Shown here piece by piece: positions 7,615 through 12,840 of a DNA stretch of 64,000 bases. Both the position numbers and the translations under genes were made by a program. Under the pieces are notes generated by a model. That model was not told the origin of the DNA. It worked only from the letters and a program-made list of their open reading frames with translations, and made no database searches. Numbering within the stretch: the first letter of the stretch is position 1; each line of letters opens with the position of its first letter. The DNA is from a virus, in IMG/VR virus record IMGVR_UViG_3300020162_002681, positions 1-64,000 of that record; one strand, written 5' to 3'.

Positions 7615-7745
7615 AGGAGAGTGGCGGAATCACTAGACGCTAAGTGCAGAAATGCCTACAGTAGAGACTAGACCTATAAGCGAAGCAGTGGATGGGTTTG
7701 TTCTGTGAAATTAGTCTCATGCAGGTGGAAATCCTGCTTCTCCTT
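7615..7745 (+). ncRNA. tRNA-like RNA without a canonical anticodon arm
   Basis: Acceptor AGGAGAG/TTCTCCT, D-arm GCG-GAATCACTAGA-CGC, T-arm GCAGG-TGGAAAT-CCTGC, long extra arm GAGACTA/TAGTCTC; no encoded CCA. Confidence 0.7.
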
Positions 7746-7839: not shown

Positions 7840-8584
7840 GTGCCATTTTCAAGATTTAAAATTGCTTGGAAGCCTTGGTATCTTGAGTACCATTCGGGCA
7901 TCCGACTCCATTTTTATGTATCTATAATGGTCAATAACTATCCGATTTTAGTATTGTGTAAGTTTGATGACCTACATTCTACTTGGTACAGGTATGTTTT
8001 CCATTTTTTATTTTTAGCTTGGGAGCGATTTGATAATGGATGACCAATATGATACTCAAATCTACTCACTAGGCTCAGGCTGGCTCCAAGACCGCTTTGC
8101 TGAAGATTATGTTTACTCGACTCGATATTCAGCTAGACTACTTCCGTTCATTACTCGCTTACAACAAATTGTTTTAGGACTACTGGCTGACCCTAACTAT
8201 CAGGAGGATTTTTAACATGGCACGACTGACTGGCAAAAATGACATTTACTTACCCTACAAGTCAACAGAAGAGATTGCGCGAGAAGCTGTAGAGGCACAT
8301 GAAGCGCGATTCACTAAAAACGGTTGGGAACTTGCGAAAGTCATTATTCCTATTGCATTTTTAGTATTGTTGGTCAACGACATTATTTTAGTTAAGGTGT
8401 TGTAATGTTCAACATACAATTCTTTTCTGCCTCCAAGCGTCAGTGGCTATTCTACGGTTTCGTAGCGTTTACTGGTAGTCTCGATACATTCATCAGTGTT
8501 GTGTTTGAACCTTATGCAAAGGTACGACCACGAACCAGTTTGCGTGTTATCGATTTGAACACTGGCAATGTAGTATATTCCTAA
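7840..8584 (+). CDS. Four small hypothetical proteins (7840-8043, ~8036-8215, 8217-8405 with C-terminal TM helix, 8405-8584)
   Basis: AAGGAG and GGAGG RBSs; coupled ORFs. Confidence 0.6.
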
Positions 8585-8585
8585 A

Positions 8586-8620
8586 GACAGATGCAAGAGC
8601 TTCCAAAGATAAGCTACTAT
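8586..8620 (+). promoter_or_regulatory. Phage promoter driving the stem-loop array and the 605-aa gene
   Basis: GACAG-ATGCAA-N18-TACTAT; predicted start ~8627, just before unit 1. Confidence 0.6.
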
Positions 8621-8630
8621 TGATTACATC

Positions 8631-8868
8631 AGGCAAAGAAAGTTCCTTTAAACTAGAACTTAAAAATTACTTTCCGCTTGACACAAAAAGACAAAGAGAG
8701 TTCCTTTATATATCATTTCGGCTTCACCGCCGAGCTAATCTACTCCCCGTCTCCTCTTTTCATTTCGGCAACGAGAGTTCCTTATTTTAGGTTAGTTACT
8801 CTCCGCCGACTCACTTTTGAGGCAACGAAGGTTCCTTTAAACGAACTTATAACTCCATACCTTCCGCC
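8631..8868 (+). repeat. Four-unit array of a covarying RNA stem-loop motif
   Basis: Units at 8631-8679, 8689-8752, 8765-8809 and 8821-8868. Consensus GRC-AAM-GARRGT-TCCTT-variable-TACYYYC-C-GYY with compensatory base changes. Confidence 0.85.
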
Positions 8869-8894
8869 ACTATATTTACTCAGGAAAATTAGCC

Positions 8895-10712
8895 ATGTCT
8901 GCATCGCTTAAACTTTTCGGTGTCGTTTTAGAAAATCGCGCTCCACAATCGATTCGTAAAACCGATTTCATTTTTATTCGGGAATTTGGTATTGTAATTG
9001 CTCCCAACGCCTCTGCCAAAGCCGTAGATATCCGTAGTTGGGCTAAGCAATCCGAACTCACTGGAAACCAACTTAATGGGTCGTTCCACAAGTCTTGGAA
9101 TAAGGTAATGAGCGCTTCAGGCTATAAACTAGCTACGGAACAATTGTTACATTACTTTACTACATACGGATTGGAAGCTCTAGGTTTAGCTCATCCTGAT
9201 TTGGTCTACATTCCAAATGAAGTTCTCAATACCCCTGAACCATTACCTCTCCGTATTATTCGTGGTGTCAGTCGTGATGAGTTAATTTCACGTACTTTCA
9301 AATTACTTTCATCTGGTGCTGCACTCAAGCAAGAAACTATCTCACTAGCGTTCGATTTGTTAGATGAACTTGATTATGTTTTCACAGGCTCGGAAGATAT
9401 TCGTAATCGCGAAGCTAAAGTCTACGCAATTGAGCGCACAGGAATCTTGCCAACTAACCCGATGGACTTATTTCGTTGGTTTGTCTACAAGGCGACAGGC
9501 GAAACTTTACTCATTAAGAATGATGCGCTGATTGCAAAAATCAAAGATTCGGGCTACATACTTCCAAGCCTCTCTTACTCTCAACAAATTGCTCTTGCAA
9601 CGCACTTCAATCGACTCAAACCACTTTGGCTAGCATTCAAGCACAGTGACGCGAACAACCCTGCAATCGTCAACAGCATTAGCAAGATAAGCAAAATCCA
9701 GCACAAGCCTCTCGCGGTTAATCTGTTGAGTAATGTCAGTAAGGTTCGCACAGCAGCAGAATTTCTTGACGTTTTACCTTCTGCCAATATCTTCCAATTG
9801 GTTCGTGCTTATAATCACTTAAAAGTGCGCTTAGCTTCTGATAACGATTCTCAATTGTATTTAGTCCGCAACGGTAAGGGGTTTGCAAAAGAGAAACCTA
9901 CTAAGCGCCCAGTTATTTTTTACGAGACATTAGCTGACTTGTTGATTCAAGAAATTCGCGCTCGATTCACTTACGAGAAAATTTACGTCCCTGACAACGT
10001 GGATTATGCGATTCCTACCAGTGAAAAGCAATTTGTCGGTATGATTCCTATCAACACTGAAATTCGCATCCCTAAAGACGAAAGCTTTGGTCTTGTTGGT
10101 ATTTACTGGGAAGATGGTCAAGAGCGCACTGACCTCGATTTACGTGCAGATTCCATGAGTGATTCTGTAGGTTGGAACTCGTCGTACAGAAATACAAACG
10201 AAGATTTCGAGGGTATCGCCTATTCTGGAGATATGACCTCTGCCCCTAATGGTGCTTCTGAGTGGCTATACCACAACAAGATTATCGACACTTACTCGGT
10301 GAAAATCAACAGCTATAGAGCAGATGAAAATCACTCATTCAAGTTGATTGTTGGGTATGGTGACAACGTTAAGAAAGACTATGTGATTGACCCTAATCGA
10401 ATCATCTTTAAAGCTGATTTGTCGATGGTTCAAGAGGAAATCACTTTAGGTATATTGGCTCCAACTGAAAATGGCTCATCTTTCTTTCTTTCTGGTGCTG
10501 CGACAAGCAATCGTAGTGTCGGGCGCGATAATAAAGTGAGTCAAATTGCACGACAAGCCCTAATCAAGCAGACTAAAAATGTGCTTCGACTTAGTGACTT
10601 GATGGCTTTGAATAACGATTATAGCTATGCTCTTGATGTTGAGGAAGCTAAATACGACCTCGCACCCGCATCACTAACTAAAGATTCGTTCTTGAATCTT
10701 TTCACTCATTAA
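8895..10712 (+). CDS. Large protein with helical N-terminal region and TerD-like C-terminal domain
   Basis: 605 aa. C-terminal VGIYW..DLDL, GWNS and YSGDMTSAPNGASE motifs are TerD-like; also FHKSW, EQLLHYFTTYG and PTSEKQFVG blocks. Confidence 0.7.
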   Translation: MSASLKLFGVVLENRAPQSIRKTDFIFIREFGIVIAPNASAKAVDIRSWAKQSELTGNQLNGSFHKSWNKVMSASGYKLATEQLLHYFTTYGLEALGLAHPDLVYIPNEVLNTPEPLPLRIIRGVSRDELISRTFKLLSSGAALKQETISLAFDLLDELDYVFTGSEDIRNREAKVYAIERTGILPTNPMDLFRWFVYKATGETLLIKNDALIAKIKDSGYILPSLSYSQQIALATHFNRLKPLWLAFKHSDANNPAIVNSISKISKIQHKPLAVNLLSNVSKVRTAAEFLDVLPSANIFQLVRAYNHLKVRLASDNDSQLYLVRNGKGFAKEKPTKRPVIFYETLADLLIQEIRARFTYEKIYVPDNVDYAIPTSEKQFVGMIPINTEIRIPKDESFGLVGIYWEDGQERTDLDLRADSMSDSVGWNSSYRNTNEDFEGIAYSGDMTSAPNGASEWLYHNKIIDTYSVKINSYRADENHSFKLIVGYGDNVKKDYVIDPNRIIFKADLSMVQEEITLGILAPTENGSSFFLSGAATSNRSVGRDNKVSQIARQALIKQTKNVLRLSDLMALNNDYSYALDVEEAKYDLAPASLTKDSFLNLFTH

Positions 10713-10722
10713 TAGATACCTC

Positions 10723-10753
10723 GAAAGGCAGATGCTAAACCGTCTGCCTTTTT
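10723..10753 (+). terminator. Intrinsic terminator overlapping a promoter (GGCAG-ATGCTA-N17-TATTCT)
   Basis: GAAAGGCAGA/TCTGCCTTTT hairpin followed by a T-run. Confidence 0.7.
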
Positions 10754-10793
10754 GTATTCTAAGTAAACAAATAAACAGATAAAAACTAATCAC

Positions 10794-12553: not shown

Positions 12554-12584
12554 TAAATACCAATTTTTGTGTTAATATAAAAAA

Positions 12585-12800
12585 GTCACTGAGATTGCTA
12601 GATAACTAGGCTGGATGGGTAGCATAAATCCAATCCTCCACCAATCTAGGGGGATGCCGCAAGGACGTTTCGACAGGTTAGTGATTCTAGCAACACGCTG
12701 GAGTTTTATGAATGAAAGCTAGGCGACACAAAAACAAATGCCAATAACAACATCGTTAAATTTGCCCGTAAGTCTGCCCTTGTAGCTGTTGCAGTTTAAC
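12585..12800 (+). ncRNA. ssrA: Circularly permuted (two-piece) tmRNA
   Basis: 3' acceptor strand ATCCTCC-A-CCA (12633-12643) precedes 5' strand GGGGGAT (12649-12655), giving G3.U70. TTTCGAC follows; TTGCTAGA/TCTAGCAA helix; tag ORF 12740-12799 reads ANNNIVKFARKSALVAVAV*; TG-T-TAATAT promoter at 12570-12578. Confidence 0.9.
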
Positions 12801-12806
12801 CAACCG

Positions 12807-12840
12807 AAGACCTCGTATACTTAACGGTTGCGGGGTCTTC
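12807..12840 (+). terminator. Hairpin ending the tmRNA transcript
   Basis: GAAGACCTCG/CGGGGTCTTC inverted repeat. Confidence 0.65.

What the first reader, a model, noticed from the sequence alone, without database searches (positions are those of the whole stretch)
8586..10712. Four tandem covarying RNA stem-loops upstream of a 605-aa TerD-domain protein: candidate Ro60/Y-RNA-like RNP system
Seen: four units share one fold, an outer stem, an AAM-versus-C internal loop, a 6-bp inner stem and a loop that always starts TCCTT. Pairing is kept by compensatory changes: outer AGGC/GCTT, AGAC/GTCT, TCGGC/GCCGA, GGC/GCC; inner GAAAGT/ACTTTC, GAGAGT/ACTCCC (one mismatch), GAGAGT/ACTCTC, GAAGGT/ACCTTC. 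The variable part is the loop, and unit 2 holds an extra hairpin. A promoter lies just before unit 1 and the gene starts 26 nt after unit 4. Known: Ro60/TROVE proteins bind bulged terminal stems of Y RNAs encoded beside their gene, and TerD domains occur in stress-response and RNA-repair loci. Inference: the protein binds these units, either as processed small RNAs with variable loops or as a multi-site autoregulatory leader. The invariant TTCCT is complementary to the gene's own RBS (AGGAA, 8882-8886) and resembles the 16S anti-SD.
Basis: partly seen in the sequence, partly recalled or inferred. Interest (0 to 1): 0.9.

Follow-up and report, generated by a model that had tools for sequence, protein, structure and literature searches.

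The report
Y-RNA-like hairpin array with TerD-fold partner
Four small folded RNAs with one conserved "handle" sit directly in front of an uncharacterised 605-residue phage protein. The same RNA-protein pair recurs in hundreds of phages and Bacteroidota, often beside tRNA genes or the RNA ligase RtcB, so it is probably an undescribed counterpart of the Ro60/Y-RNA particle.

Summary
Four units (8629-8681, 8689-8752, 8765-8809, 8820-8869, + strand) share one fold. It has an outer stem, an AAM-versus-C internal loop, a 6-bp stem ending GU, and a loop starting UCCUU. They are the only four matches in the 146-kb phage genome.

The same handle forms arrays of 1-8 units, always on the gene's strand. 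It lies next to homologues of the 605-aa protein in nearly all of 81 phage loci and all 80 bacterial loci examined. In 151 Bacteroidota genomes, strong matches occur only in the two that carry the protein.

Covariation is strong, and G-U pairs fix the strand. In relatives the variable loop often holds a tRNA-like domain arranged as in the bacterial Y RNA YrlA. RtcB is adjacent in 66 of 80 bacterial loci.

The protein has a TerD-like C-terminal fold (Z 10) and a helical N-domain with no detectable relative. I found no homology to Ro60. Neither RNA nor protein matches Rfam, Pfam, NCBIfam, PHROGs or PADLOC.

Best reading: a Ro60/Y-RNA-like particle that is analogous, not homologous. Binding and expression are untested. 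This scan has already reported the same system on other genomes.

The parts
8629..8681 (+). Handle RNA unit 1: outer stem UCAGGC/GCUUGA, AAA/C internal loop, inner stem GAAAGU/ACUUUC, 25-nt loop starting UCCUUU
   Evidence: Sequence. Model R1 51 bits, E 1.5e-15. MFE equals the proposed fold, z -2.5.
8689..8752 (+). Handle RNA unit 2: AGAC/GUCU, AAA/C, GAGAGU/ACUCCC (one A-C mismatch), 40-nt loop with an extra hairpin UCGGC-UUCACC-GCCGA
   Evidence: Sequence. R1 34.1 bits, E 2.4e-9, although this unit was not in the seed alignment. Fold.
8765..8809 (+). Handle RNA unit 3: UCGGC/GCCGA, AAC/C, GAGAGU/ACUCUC, 19-nt loop starting UCCUUA
   Evidence: Sequence. R1 38.1 bits. MFE equals the proposed fold, z -3.4.
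8820..8869 (+). Handle RNA unit 4 (gene-proximal): GGC/GCC, AAC/C, GAAGGU/ACCUUC, 26-nt loop starting UCCUUU
   Evidence: Sequence. R1 39.2 bits. MFE equals the proposed fold, z -2.7.
8882..8886 (+). Shine-Dalgarno-like AGGAA, 8 nt before the ATG
   Evidence: Sequence. SD-like elements in this spacer occur in 39/60 phage loci but only 1/70 bacterial loci.
8895..10712 (+). Gene for the 605-aa partner protein. It belongs to a large uncharacterised family.
   Evidence: ORF. More than 300 homologues, all 'hypothetical'. 1341 clusters at 50% identity match the N-domain profile. No Pfam, PHROG, PADLOC or NCBIfam family. AF2 model pLDDT 85, pTM 0.83.
8895..10046 (+). N-terminal helical domain (residues 1 to about 384) with no detectable relative. 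Invariant basic and aromatic residues include Q83, H86-Y87, R240, K242, H270 and R325.
   Evidence: Alignments A1 and A2. Foldseek finds no match with E <= 0.001. Best VIA Z is about 6, on local helices only. hhalign against TROVE gives probability 0.4%. The ESM Atlas finds only unnamed viral clusters.
10065..10562 (+). TerD-like beta-sandwich domain (residues 391-556), with the conserved motifs DLDLS and SGDxTxAxxGAxE
   Evidence: Foldseek probability 1.00 to 3ibz, 2kxt, 2qng and 2qz7. VIA Z 10.2 (rmsd 2.8, 140 aligned) and Z 9.2. No sequence-level match to TerD.
10723..10762 (+). Terminator-like hairpin (12-bp stem) with a T-rich tail, 11 nt after the stop codon. None lies between the array and the gene.

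Best explanation
The four units are genes for small structured RNAs (about 45-65 nt). They are transcribed on the + strand together with the downstream gene and probably cut apart.

Each RNA has a constant 'handle': an outer stem, a 3-nt AWA bulge opposite one C, a 6-bp stem closed by G-C and U-A pairs, then UCCU. Each also has a variable apical module. The 605-aa protein (novel helical N-domain plus TerD-like beta-sandwich) most likely recognises the handle, so each RNA forms a ribonucleoprotein with it.

In relatives the apical module is often a tRNA mimic. There the gene sits with RtcB or inside tRNA gene arrays. The particle therefore most likely acts in surveillance, repair or protection of tRNA-like or damaged RNAs, as Ro60 does with Y RNAs. 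In a phage this would plausibly serve during infection, when host nucleases attack tRNAs.

The gene-proximal unit ends 25 nt from the ATG. It may additionally let the protein repress its own translation.

Shown: the structure, its covariation, its strand, and its exclusive genomic linkage to this protein family; the tRNA-like cargo in relatives; the RtcB and tRNA context; the TerD-like fold.

Inferred: direct binding, processing into separate RNAs, and the biological role.
For: Structure and covariation
- In 47 diverse units, 98.9% of cells are paired and 9 of 10 pairs show changes on both sides. 0 of 500 shuffles reach the covariation score. Sliding the register drops pairing to 33-55%.
- A test that does not presuppose pairing used anchors defined by the 5' sequence only. 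396 of 686 anchors find a perfect partner for their own stems, against 106 when stems are swapped between anchors.
- G-U pairs are tolerated, for example 7 at pair 2-54, so the + strand RNA is the folded molecule.

Linkage to the protein
- 222 model matches in 81 phage loci are all on the gene's strand and none on the other.
- By descriptor scan, 152 of 230 strict + strand hits lie in the 500 nt before the gene.
- All 80 bacterial loci have 1-5 units ending 9-19 nt before the start in most cases.
- Among 151 Bacteroidota genomes, strong matches occur only in the two that encode the protein, directly upstream of it.
- There are no matches beside 14 true Ro60 genes.
- No protein-coding neighbour is shared by more than 5 of 80 phage loci. 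The RNA is the only constant partner.

Trans-acting RNA rather than leader only
- Units also lie downstream of the gene or apart from it: L001 4830-4879, L003 5989-6451, L002 456-508 among tRNAs, and L057, L068, L081, L082.
- Loops of many units hold a T arm, a capped acceptor stem and a D arm in the YrlA order.
- Two such loops match Rfam YrlA positions 23-88 at 36.8 bits, E 2e-6.
- In Chryseobacterium the same particle occurs in the other circular permutation. There a normal-order tRNA-like RNA carries the handle in place of the anticodon loop.
- Orphan T arms lie within 130 nt of a handle in 32/77 phage and 55/73 bacterial loci.

Context
- RtcB is adjacent in 66/80 bacterial loci, with a divergent WYL/WCX regulator in L103.
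- tRNA genes lie within 3 kb in 35/81 phage loci.
- The homologues in S-CRM01, S-CBWM1 and Phass-1 lie in or beside tRNA genes.

Protein
- The model is confident. The TerD-like fold scores Z 10.2.
- Many residues in the N-domain are invariant, among them several basic ones. That they serve RNA binding is inference.
Against: - No experiment or fold here shows that the protein binds the RNA.
- No RNA-seq run holds this phage, so transcription and processing are unshown.
- This phage has no RtcB, no Rnl-type ligase, and no tRNA gene near the locus. Its three tRNAs lie at 73-74 kb.
- Its four units carry no tRNA-like module. The functional inference is therefore borrowed from relatives.
- The RtcB link rests largely on one genus, Chryseobacterium, plus a few other Flavobacteriales, so the number of independent observations is small.
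- The fixed position of the last unit just before the start codon fits a cis-regulatory role at least as well.
- The N-domain has no recognisable RNA-binding fold.
Confidence: 0.6

Rival explanations
1. The array is purely a cis-acting 5' leader. The units are repeated operator sites on the mRNA through which the protein, or another factor, controls translation or stability of its own message. No free small RNAs are made.
For: - The array is on the gene's strand and nearly always directly upstream.
- No terminator lies between array and gene.
- The last unit ends at a narrow distance from the start codon: median 17 nt in bacteria and 21.5 nt in phages.
- The last unit is a distinct subtype, with a U-A instead of a C-G closing pair, in 66/70 bacterial and 12/65 phage loci. 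This suggests a special role next to the start codon.
Against: - Units occur downstream of the gene, 1.2 kb away behind other ORFs (L003), or alone inside tRNA arrays (L002 456-508).
- The number of units varies from 1 to 8.
- Many units carry elaborate tRNA-shaped cargo in two circular permutations. One of these has tRNA-type free ends. An operator site would not need this.
- Partial autoregulation through the last unit is compatible with the main explanation.
Confidence: 0.2
2. It is a toxin-antitoxin-like or abortive-infection module of the type III kind. A tandem RNA array is processed into units that neutralise the protein encoded just downstream.
For: - A tandem RNA array lies immediately upstream of one protein gene.
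- The two-part module is self-contained and moves between phages and bacteria without other conserved neighbours.
- In Chryseobacterium a WYL-type regulator lies nearby. From general knowledge, not tested here, such regulators are common beside defence genes.
Against: - The units are not near-identical repeats. They share only the handle and differ in stems and loops through compensatory changes.
- No terminator lies between array and gene.
- The protein matches no PADLOC model, and neither fold search returned a nuclease or toxin fold above background.
- RtcB adjacency and the tRNA-mimic cargo point to RNA repair rather than to killing.
Confidence: 0.07
3. The handle is a protein-dependent RNA cleavage-and-ligation signal. 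The two helices around an asymmetric internal loop would mark a cut site, and RtcB would rejoin the ends. The tRNA-like cargo would thus be excised, circularised or spliced.
For: - RtcB, the ligase of protein-dependent tRNA splicing in archaea and eukaryotes (established knowledge), is the recurrent neighbour in bacteria.
- In L103 the handle sits exactly where tRNA introns sit, replacing the anticodon loop of a normal-order tRNA-like RNA.
- Elsewhere the tRNA-like part is circularly permuted. In red algae and archaea, permuted tRNA genes are matured through cleavage and ligation (recalled knowledge, a lead only).
Against: - Most units, including all four here, have no tRNA-like part.
- The phage in the window, and nearly all phage loci (82 of 83 within 3 kb), lack RtcB.
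- No nuclease fold or motif was found in the protein.
- The acceptor stems of the permuted forms are capped hairpins without CCA ends.
Confidence: 0.06

Closest known systems
Ro60 (Rsr) with the bacterial Y RNAs YrlA and YrlB, for example the Salmonella rsr-yrlBA-rtcBA operon (Chen et al. 2014, PMC4201824)
   Same: - One protein gene is flanked by one or several small structured RNAs on the same strand.
- The RNAs are modular: a conserved protein-side stem with bulges, plus a variable module.
- That module is often a tRNA mimic in the order variable loop, T arm, capped acceptor stem, D arm.
- Such loops in L066 match Rfam YrlA at E 2e-6.
- RtcB is a neighbour in bacteria, and the system also occurs in phages.
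- The protein combines a helical domain with a second domain of a family known to bind metal ions.
   Different: - The protein has no TROVE and no vWA domain: no Pfam match even at E <= 10, hhalign probability 0.4% against 14 Bacteroidota Ro60 proteins, and structural Z only 3.8 to 1yvp.
- Its C-domain is TerD-like.
- The handle (GRC-AWA-NNNNGU-UCCU ... ACNNNN-C-GYC) is not the YrlA stem. YrlA matches stop at the borders of the tRNA-like core.
- Model R1 finds nothing beside true Ro60 genes.
- Arrays of up to 8 units are larger than any Y RNA set I know of beside Ro60 genes (recalled, not checked here).
- Most units have only a short loop as cargo.
TerD-family proteins (K. pneumoniae TerD, PDB 2KXT; Streptomyces SCO6318, PDB 2QZ7)
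   Same: The beta-sandwich of residues 391-556 superposes with Z 10.2 and 9.2 and Foldseek probability 1.00. The motifs DLDLS and SGDxTxAxxGAxE resemble the acidic calcium-site motifs that I recall from TerD. That is a lead, not a test.
   Different: There is no sequence-level match to Pfam TerD or to TerD chains in the PDB. The domain is fused to a 385-residue helical domain, and its genomic partner is an RNA array. It is not part of a ter operon.
Type III toxin-antitoxin loci (ToxIN and relatives)
   Same: A tandem array of small RNA units lies directly upstream of the single protein gene that presumably binds them. The module is mobile and occurs in both bacteria and phages.
   Different: The units here are divergent and covarying, not near-identical repeats. 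No terminator lies between array and gene. The protein is 605 aa with no nuclease or known toxin fold and no PADLOC match.

Membership tests
Ro60 / TROVE proteins | TROVE domain detectable by sequence profile (Pfam PF05731) | tested here: not met
   No Pfam family at E <= 0.1 for the whole protein, nor at E <= 10 for either half. The A1 profile finds no Ro60 chain in the PDB at E <= 10. hhalign of A1 against 14 Bacteroidota TROVE proteins gives probability 0.4%, E 0.15.
Ro60 / TROVE proteins | C-terminal von Willebrand A domain with a metal site | tested here: not met
   The C-terminal domain is a TerD-like beta-sandwich, Z 10.2 to 2qz7.
Ro60 / TROVE proteins | Ring of HEAT-like helical repeats | tested here: inconclusive
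   The whole model aligns to 1yvp_A with Z 3.8, rmsd 5.8, 243 residues, which is within background. Ro60 is not among the 50 best matches of the N-domain model, where best Z is about 6.
Y RNA, YrlA type (Rfam RF02553) | Match to the Rfam model at its gathering score | tested here: not met
   No Rfam match in the window at gathering score, nor at E <= 10 in 8500-8950. Relatives reach only 36.8 of 69 bits, over the tRNA-like core alone.
Y RNA, YrlA type (Rfam RF02553) | tRNA-like domain (T arm, capped acceptor stem, D arm) | tested here: not met
   There is no T arm in the window's array. The domain is present in units of 32/77 phage and 55/73 bacterial relatives.
Y RNA, YrlA type (Rfam RF02553) | Ro60-binding 5' motif GNCGAAN0-1G (Chen et al. 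2014) | tested here: inconclusive
   The handle reads GRC-AWA-N4-GU (for example GGCAAAG), one letter from the YrlA motif. The resemblance may be chance. Model R1 finds no match beside 14 Ro60 genes.
Y RNA, YrlA type (Rfam RF02553) | Encoded next to the gene of its protein partner | tested here: met
   The partner is a different protein family.
TerD domain (Pfam PF02342) | Match to the Pfam TerD profile | tested here: not met
   No match at E <= 10 for residues 385-605. The C-domain profile A5 finds no TerD chain in the PDB.
TerD domain (Pfam PF02342) | TerD beta-sandwich fold | tested here: met
   Foldseek probability 1.00 to 3ibz, 2kxt, 2qng and 2qz7. VIA Z 10.2 and 9.2 over residues 391-556.
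TerD domain (Pfam PF02342) | Calcium-binding acidic motifs | not tested
   D413, D415, D446 and E456 are invariant and lie in motifs that resemble TerD's. No residue-level superposition was available.
Type III toxin-antitoxin | Near-identical tandem direct repeats as antitoxin | tested here: not met
   Only a 17-nt core is shared, at 88% identity. Stems and loops differ.
Type III toxin-antitoxin | Terminator between the repeats and the toxin gene; ToxN-like endoribonuclease | tested here: not met
   No terminator-like site lies between 8600 and 8895. There is no PADLOC match and no nuclease fold.

The most novel reading that the evidence does not exclude
This is a widespread ribonucleoprotein system that has not been described, with about 1300 protein clusters at 50% identity in phages and Bacteroidota. 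It would have arisen independently of Ro60. A protein of new fold plus a TerD-like domain uses a universal RNA 'handle' to carry interchangeable RNA cargoes: short loops, hairpins, and tRNA mimics in either circular permutation. Phages would deploy arrays of these RNAs to protect or repair tRNAs, or to decoy host RNA-targeting defences.
Probability: 0.5. Interest if true: 0.85.

Novelty: new variant of a known kind. Interest (0 to 1): 0.78.

Why it matters
Ro60 with its Y RNAs is the only described particle of this kind that I know of: a protein that uses modular small RNAs, some mimicking tRNA, in RNA quality control and repair. Here a protein with no detectable relation to Ro60 shows the same logic.

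- It has its own conserved RNA handle.
- It has the same tRNA-mimic cargo in many relatives.
- It has the same RtcB neighbourhood in bacteria.

If the pair binds as proposed, it would be a second, non-homologous solution to the same task. It would also give function to more than a thousand 'hypothetical' protein clusters, and it would add a new RNA family to the catalogues. It could explain why many large phages carry such arrays among their tRNA genes.

The system is easy to test. The handle is short, its covariation tells which mutants to make, and cultured carriers exist (Chryseobacterium; Synechococcus phages S-CRM01 and S-CBWM1).

Tried and rejected
- Rfam: nothing in the window at gathering score, and nothing at E <= 10 around the array. 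ARAGORN finds no tRNA or tmRNA in the window.
- Protein libraries: Pfam, PHROGs, PADLOC and NCBIfam give no family. The only row is a 16.7-bit hit to NF041916, far below its 600-bit cut-off.
- PDB by sequence: nothing for the protein, the A1 profile or the C-domain profile.
- N-domain alone: no Foldseek match with E <= 0.001. The best VIA matches (Z about 6) are short helical hairpins such as ribosomal protein L29, which I take as background.
- Botulinum NTNH and toxin rows in the whole-protein Foldseek list have probability <= 0.28 and rmsd above 25 A. I disregard them.
- ESM Atlas: only unnamed viral clusters.
- Ro60 homology: rejected as unsupported.
- Promoter before unit 1: not found by the consensus scan. 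The array may be read through from the tightly packed upstream ORFs at 8030-8584.
- Anti-Shine-Dalgarno idea: rejected as a general explanation.
- RNA-seq: no RNA holder is listed for this stretch. Only freshwater DNA metagenomes hold it, one of which may be the source.
Bacterial context came from the search for related loci instead.
- Complex prediction was not used, because it does not take RNA partners.
- My first descriptor scans were too loose or off by one base, and were replaced.
- The descriptor also mis-paired some first units in bacterial arrays with the 3' strand of the next unit. Their true partner lies upstream, because the handle is permuted there.
- Literature searches on YrlA/Rsr/phage, TerD/TROVE/Y RNA, RtcB/TerD and RtcB/tRNA-like/Chryseobacterium found no description of this pair. 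The library does not cover most subscription journals.
Full report
**What is in the window**

Between the stop of a small ORF (8584) and the ATG of a 605-codon ORF (8895) lie four hairpins on the + strand, at 8629-8681, 8689-8752, 8765-8809 and 8820-8869. Each has four features:
- an outer stem of 3-6 bp;
- a three-base bulge (AAA or AAC) opposite a single C;
- a 6-bp inner stem ending GU;
- a loop beginning UCCUU.

The shared 17-nt core occurs four times in the window, against 0.25 expected. Each unit folds alone into the proposed shape as its minimum-energy structure. In the MFE fold of the whole array, units 1 and 3 come back and units 2 and 4 do not.

AGGAA lies at 8882-8886. A terminator-like hairpin follows the gene at 10723-10752, and none lies between the array and the gene. 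The upstream ORFs are tightly packed on the same strand, so read-through is possible.

**The RNA is a conserved, covarying family tied to this gene**

tblastn found homologues of the protein in Synechococcus phages S-CRM01 and S-CBWM1 and in the gut phage Phass-1. Reading their flanks showed the same motif:
- five units before and one unit after S-CRM01 g174;
- one unit before S-CBWM1 gp22 and one among its tRNA genes;
- six units downstream of the Phass-1 gene.

I then fetched 80 phage loci (239 found) and 80 bacterial loci (263 species, mostly Bacteroidota) that encode a relative.

A strict structural descriptor gave these counts:

| Loci | Hits on the gene's strand | Hits on the other strand |
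|---|---|---|
| Phage | 230 (152 in the 500 nt before the gene) | 15 |
| Bacterial | 294 | 31 |

Every bacterial locus has 1-5 units in front of the gene.

A covariance model (R1) was built from 47 diverse units. Its results:
- exactly the four units in the whole 146-kb genome of this phage, including unit 2, which was not in the seed;
- 222 matches in 81 phage loci, all on the gene's strand;
- no match beside 14 genuine Ro60 genes;
- in 151 Bacteroidota genomes, strong matches only in the two genomes that encode the protein, directly upstream of it.

Covariation is strong. In the 47 units, 98.9% of cells are paired and 9 of 10 pairs change on both sides. 0 of 500 shuffles reach the score, and sliding the register destroys the pairing.

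Those units had been picked by a descriptor that demands pairing, so I added a test that does not. Anchors were defined by the 5' sequence alone. 396 of 686 anchors find a perfect partner for their own stems, against 106 when stems are swapped among anchors. G-U pairs in the stems show that the + strand RNA is what folds.

**The variable loop is a cargo slot**

Most loops are 17-45 nt. About twenty distinct units carry a T arm, a hairpin-capped acceptor stem and a D arm, in that order. This is the arrangement described for the tRNA-like domain of the bacterial Y RNA YrlA (Chen et al. 2014, PMC4201824).

Two such loops in L066 match Rfam YrlA at 36.8 bits (E 2e-6). The match covers only model positions 23-88, the tRNA-like core, and not YrlA's own terminal stem.

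In Chryseobacterium the first element of the array is the same object in the other circular permutation. It is a normal-order tRNA-like RNA (50 bits to the Rfam tRNA model) whose anticodon loop is replaced by 46 nt. Those 46 nt hold the handle with its outer stem capped by a loop.

One phage unit encloses a complete tRNA-Ile. T arms that belong to no tRNA gene lie within 130 nt of a handle in 32 of 77 phage loci and 55 of 73 bacterial loci. None lies in this window.

Two permutations of one shape, and units placed downstream of the gene or alone among tRNA genes, argue for folded, free RNA molecules rather than a mere leader.

**The protein**

Pfam, PHROGs, PADLOC and NCBIfam name no family, and there is no PDB relative by sequence. 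The family is nevertheless large:
- more than 300 close relatives, all 'hypothetical';
- 1341 clusters at 50% identity match the N-domain profile;
- nearly all are 580-690 residues long, so the two domains stay together.

AlphaFold2 gives a confident model with pLDDT 85 and pTM 0.83.

Residues 391-556 form a TerD-like beta-sandwich. Foldseek gives probability 1.00 to four TerD structures, and VIA gives Z 10.2 and 9.2.

The helical N-domain, folded alone (pLDDT 78), has no significant structural relative. The ESM Atlas links it only to other unnamed viral proteins.

Ro60 homology is not supported:
- the whole model aligns to Ro60 (1yvp) at Z 3.8, which is background;
- a profile-profile comparison with 14 Bacteroidota TROVE proteins gives probability 0.4%.

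**Context**

In bacteria the RNA ligase RtcB is adjacent in 66 of 80 loci. It lies upstream in Chryseobacterium, with a divergent WYL/WCX regulator. It lies downstream in Winogradskyella and Algibacter, where large tRNA arrays are also nearby. Many of these loci are from one genus, so the independent observations are few.

In phages no protein-coding neighbour recurs in more than 5 of 80 loci, and tRNA genes lie within 3 kb in 35 of 81 loci.

The phage of this window is a complete 146-kb genome with terminal repeats, found in freshwater metagenomes. It is probably a cyanophage, on the strength of a short match to Pseudanabaena phage Pam2. It has no RtcB, no Rnl-type ligase, and only three tRNA genes far from the locus. 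If the module works with a ligase, it must use the host's.

**How it most likely works**

The only constant partners are the handle RNA and the protein. The simplest reading is that the protein binds the handle and that each unit becomes a small ribonucleoprotein whose apical module confers specificity. The tRNA-mimic cargo, the RtcB neighbourhood and the tRNA-array neighbourhood place the system in RNA surveillance or repair, as with Ro60 and Y RNAs. I put this at about 0.6. Linkage and structure are shown. Binding, processing and role are inferred.

The last unit ends at a narrow distance from the start codon, with a median of 17 nt in bacteria. It is also a distinct subtype in bacteria, with a U-A closing pair in 66 of 70 last units against 1 of 157 others. 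Autoregulation through that unit is a plausible second role. A purely cis-acting leader gets 0.2.

UCCU is equally conserved in Bacteroidota loci, where only 1 of 70 spacers holds a Shine-Dalgarno-like element.

A type III toxin-antitoxin-like module (0.07) and a cleavage-ligation signal served by RtcB (0.06) are less likely, for the reasons given under rival explanations.

**Novelty**

I found no catalogue entry and no paper for either partner, within the limits of the held library.

Earlier follow-ups of this same scan reached the same reading on other genomes (e1-5968733, e1-5704145, e1-5954027, e1-5325356). These are AI notes, not independent evidence. I had reached my reading before seeing them. 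One of them calls the protein Ro60-like. My tests do not support that homology.

I class the finding as a new variant of a known kind. It has the logic of Ro60/Y RNA, built from an unrelated protein and a different RNA handle.

Noticed in passing
L103 5689-5800 (Chryseobacterium sp. PMSZPI); similar Rfam tRNA-model matches (113-121 nt long) at L118 5487-5599 and L161 5479-5596 and 5669-5789, whose inserts I did not read: A normal-order tRNA-like RNA (50 bits to the Rfam tRNA model) whose anticodon loop is replaced by 46 nt. The insert contains the handle in permuted order, with its outer stem capped by a loop. It is the circular permutation of the YrlA-like units seen in phages.
   Followed up: partly
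Bacterial loci L084-L163 and phage loci L004-L083, gene-proximal unit: The unit nearest the start codon has a U-A instead of a C-G pair closing the outer stem at the internal loop. This holds in 66/70 bacterial and 12/65 phage loci, against 1/157 and 3/99 for the other units. Unit 4 of this window has C-G. This may mark a specialised, perhaps autoregulatory, unit.
   Followed up: partly
L071 1905-2056: One handle unit encloses a complete, normal tRNA-Ile (anticodon AAT; ARAGORN and Rfam 66.8 bits) in its loop.
   Followed up: no
L001 2791-2937 (S-CRM01 g173c, minus strand): The annotated 48-aa reverse-strand 'hypothetical protein' lies entirely on top of the handle RNA array before g174. It is probably not a gene.
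   Followed up: no
window 7615-7745 and 12570-12840: Other notes of this scan place a tRNA-Leu mimic without an anticodon arm, and a possible permuted tmRNA, within 1-4 kb of the array. The tRNA mimic carries no GTTCCT handle. The array thus sits in a segment rich in small-RNA genes, although the phage's three real tRNA genes lie at 73-74 kb.
   Followed up: partly
G135:C45:97112-97522: A Bacteroidota genome has a 695-aa ORF that matches only profile positions 350-471 (linker and start of the TerD-like domain, E 1e-14), with no handle RNA in that genome. The TerD-like part may occur in another architecture.
   Followed up: no
L118 10307-11014: In Winogradskyella the module (tRNA array, R2K ATP-grasp, handle RNAs, gene, RtcB) is followed by a DUF434/DUF5616 protein. 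It may be a further RNA-processing partner.
   Followed up: no
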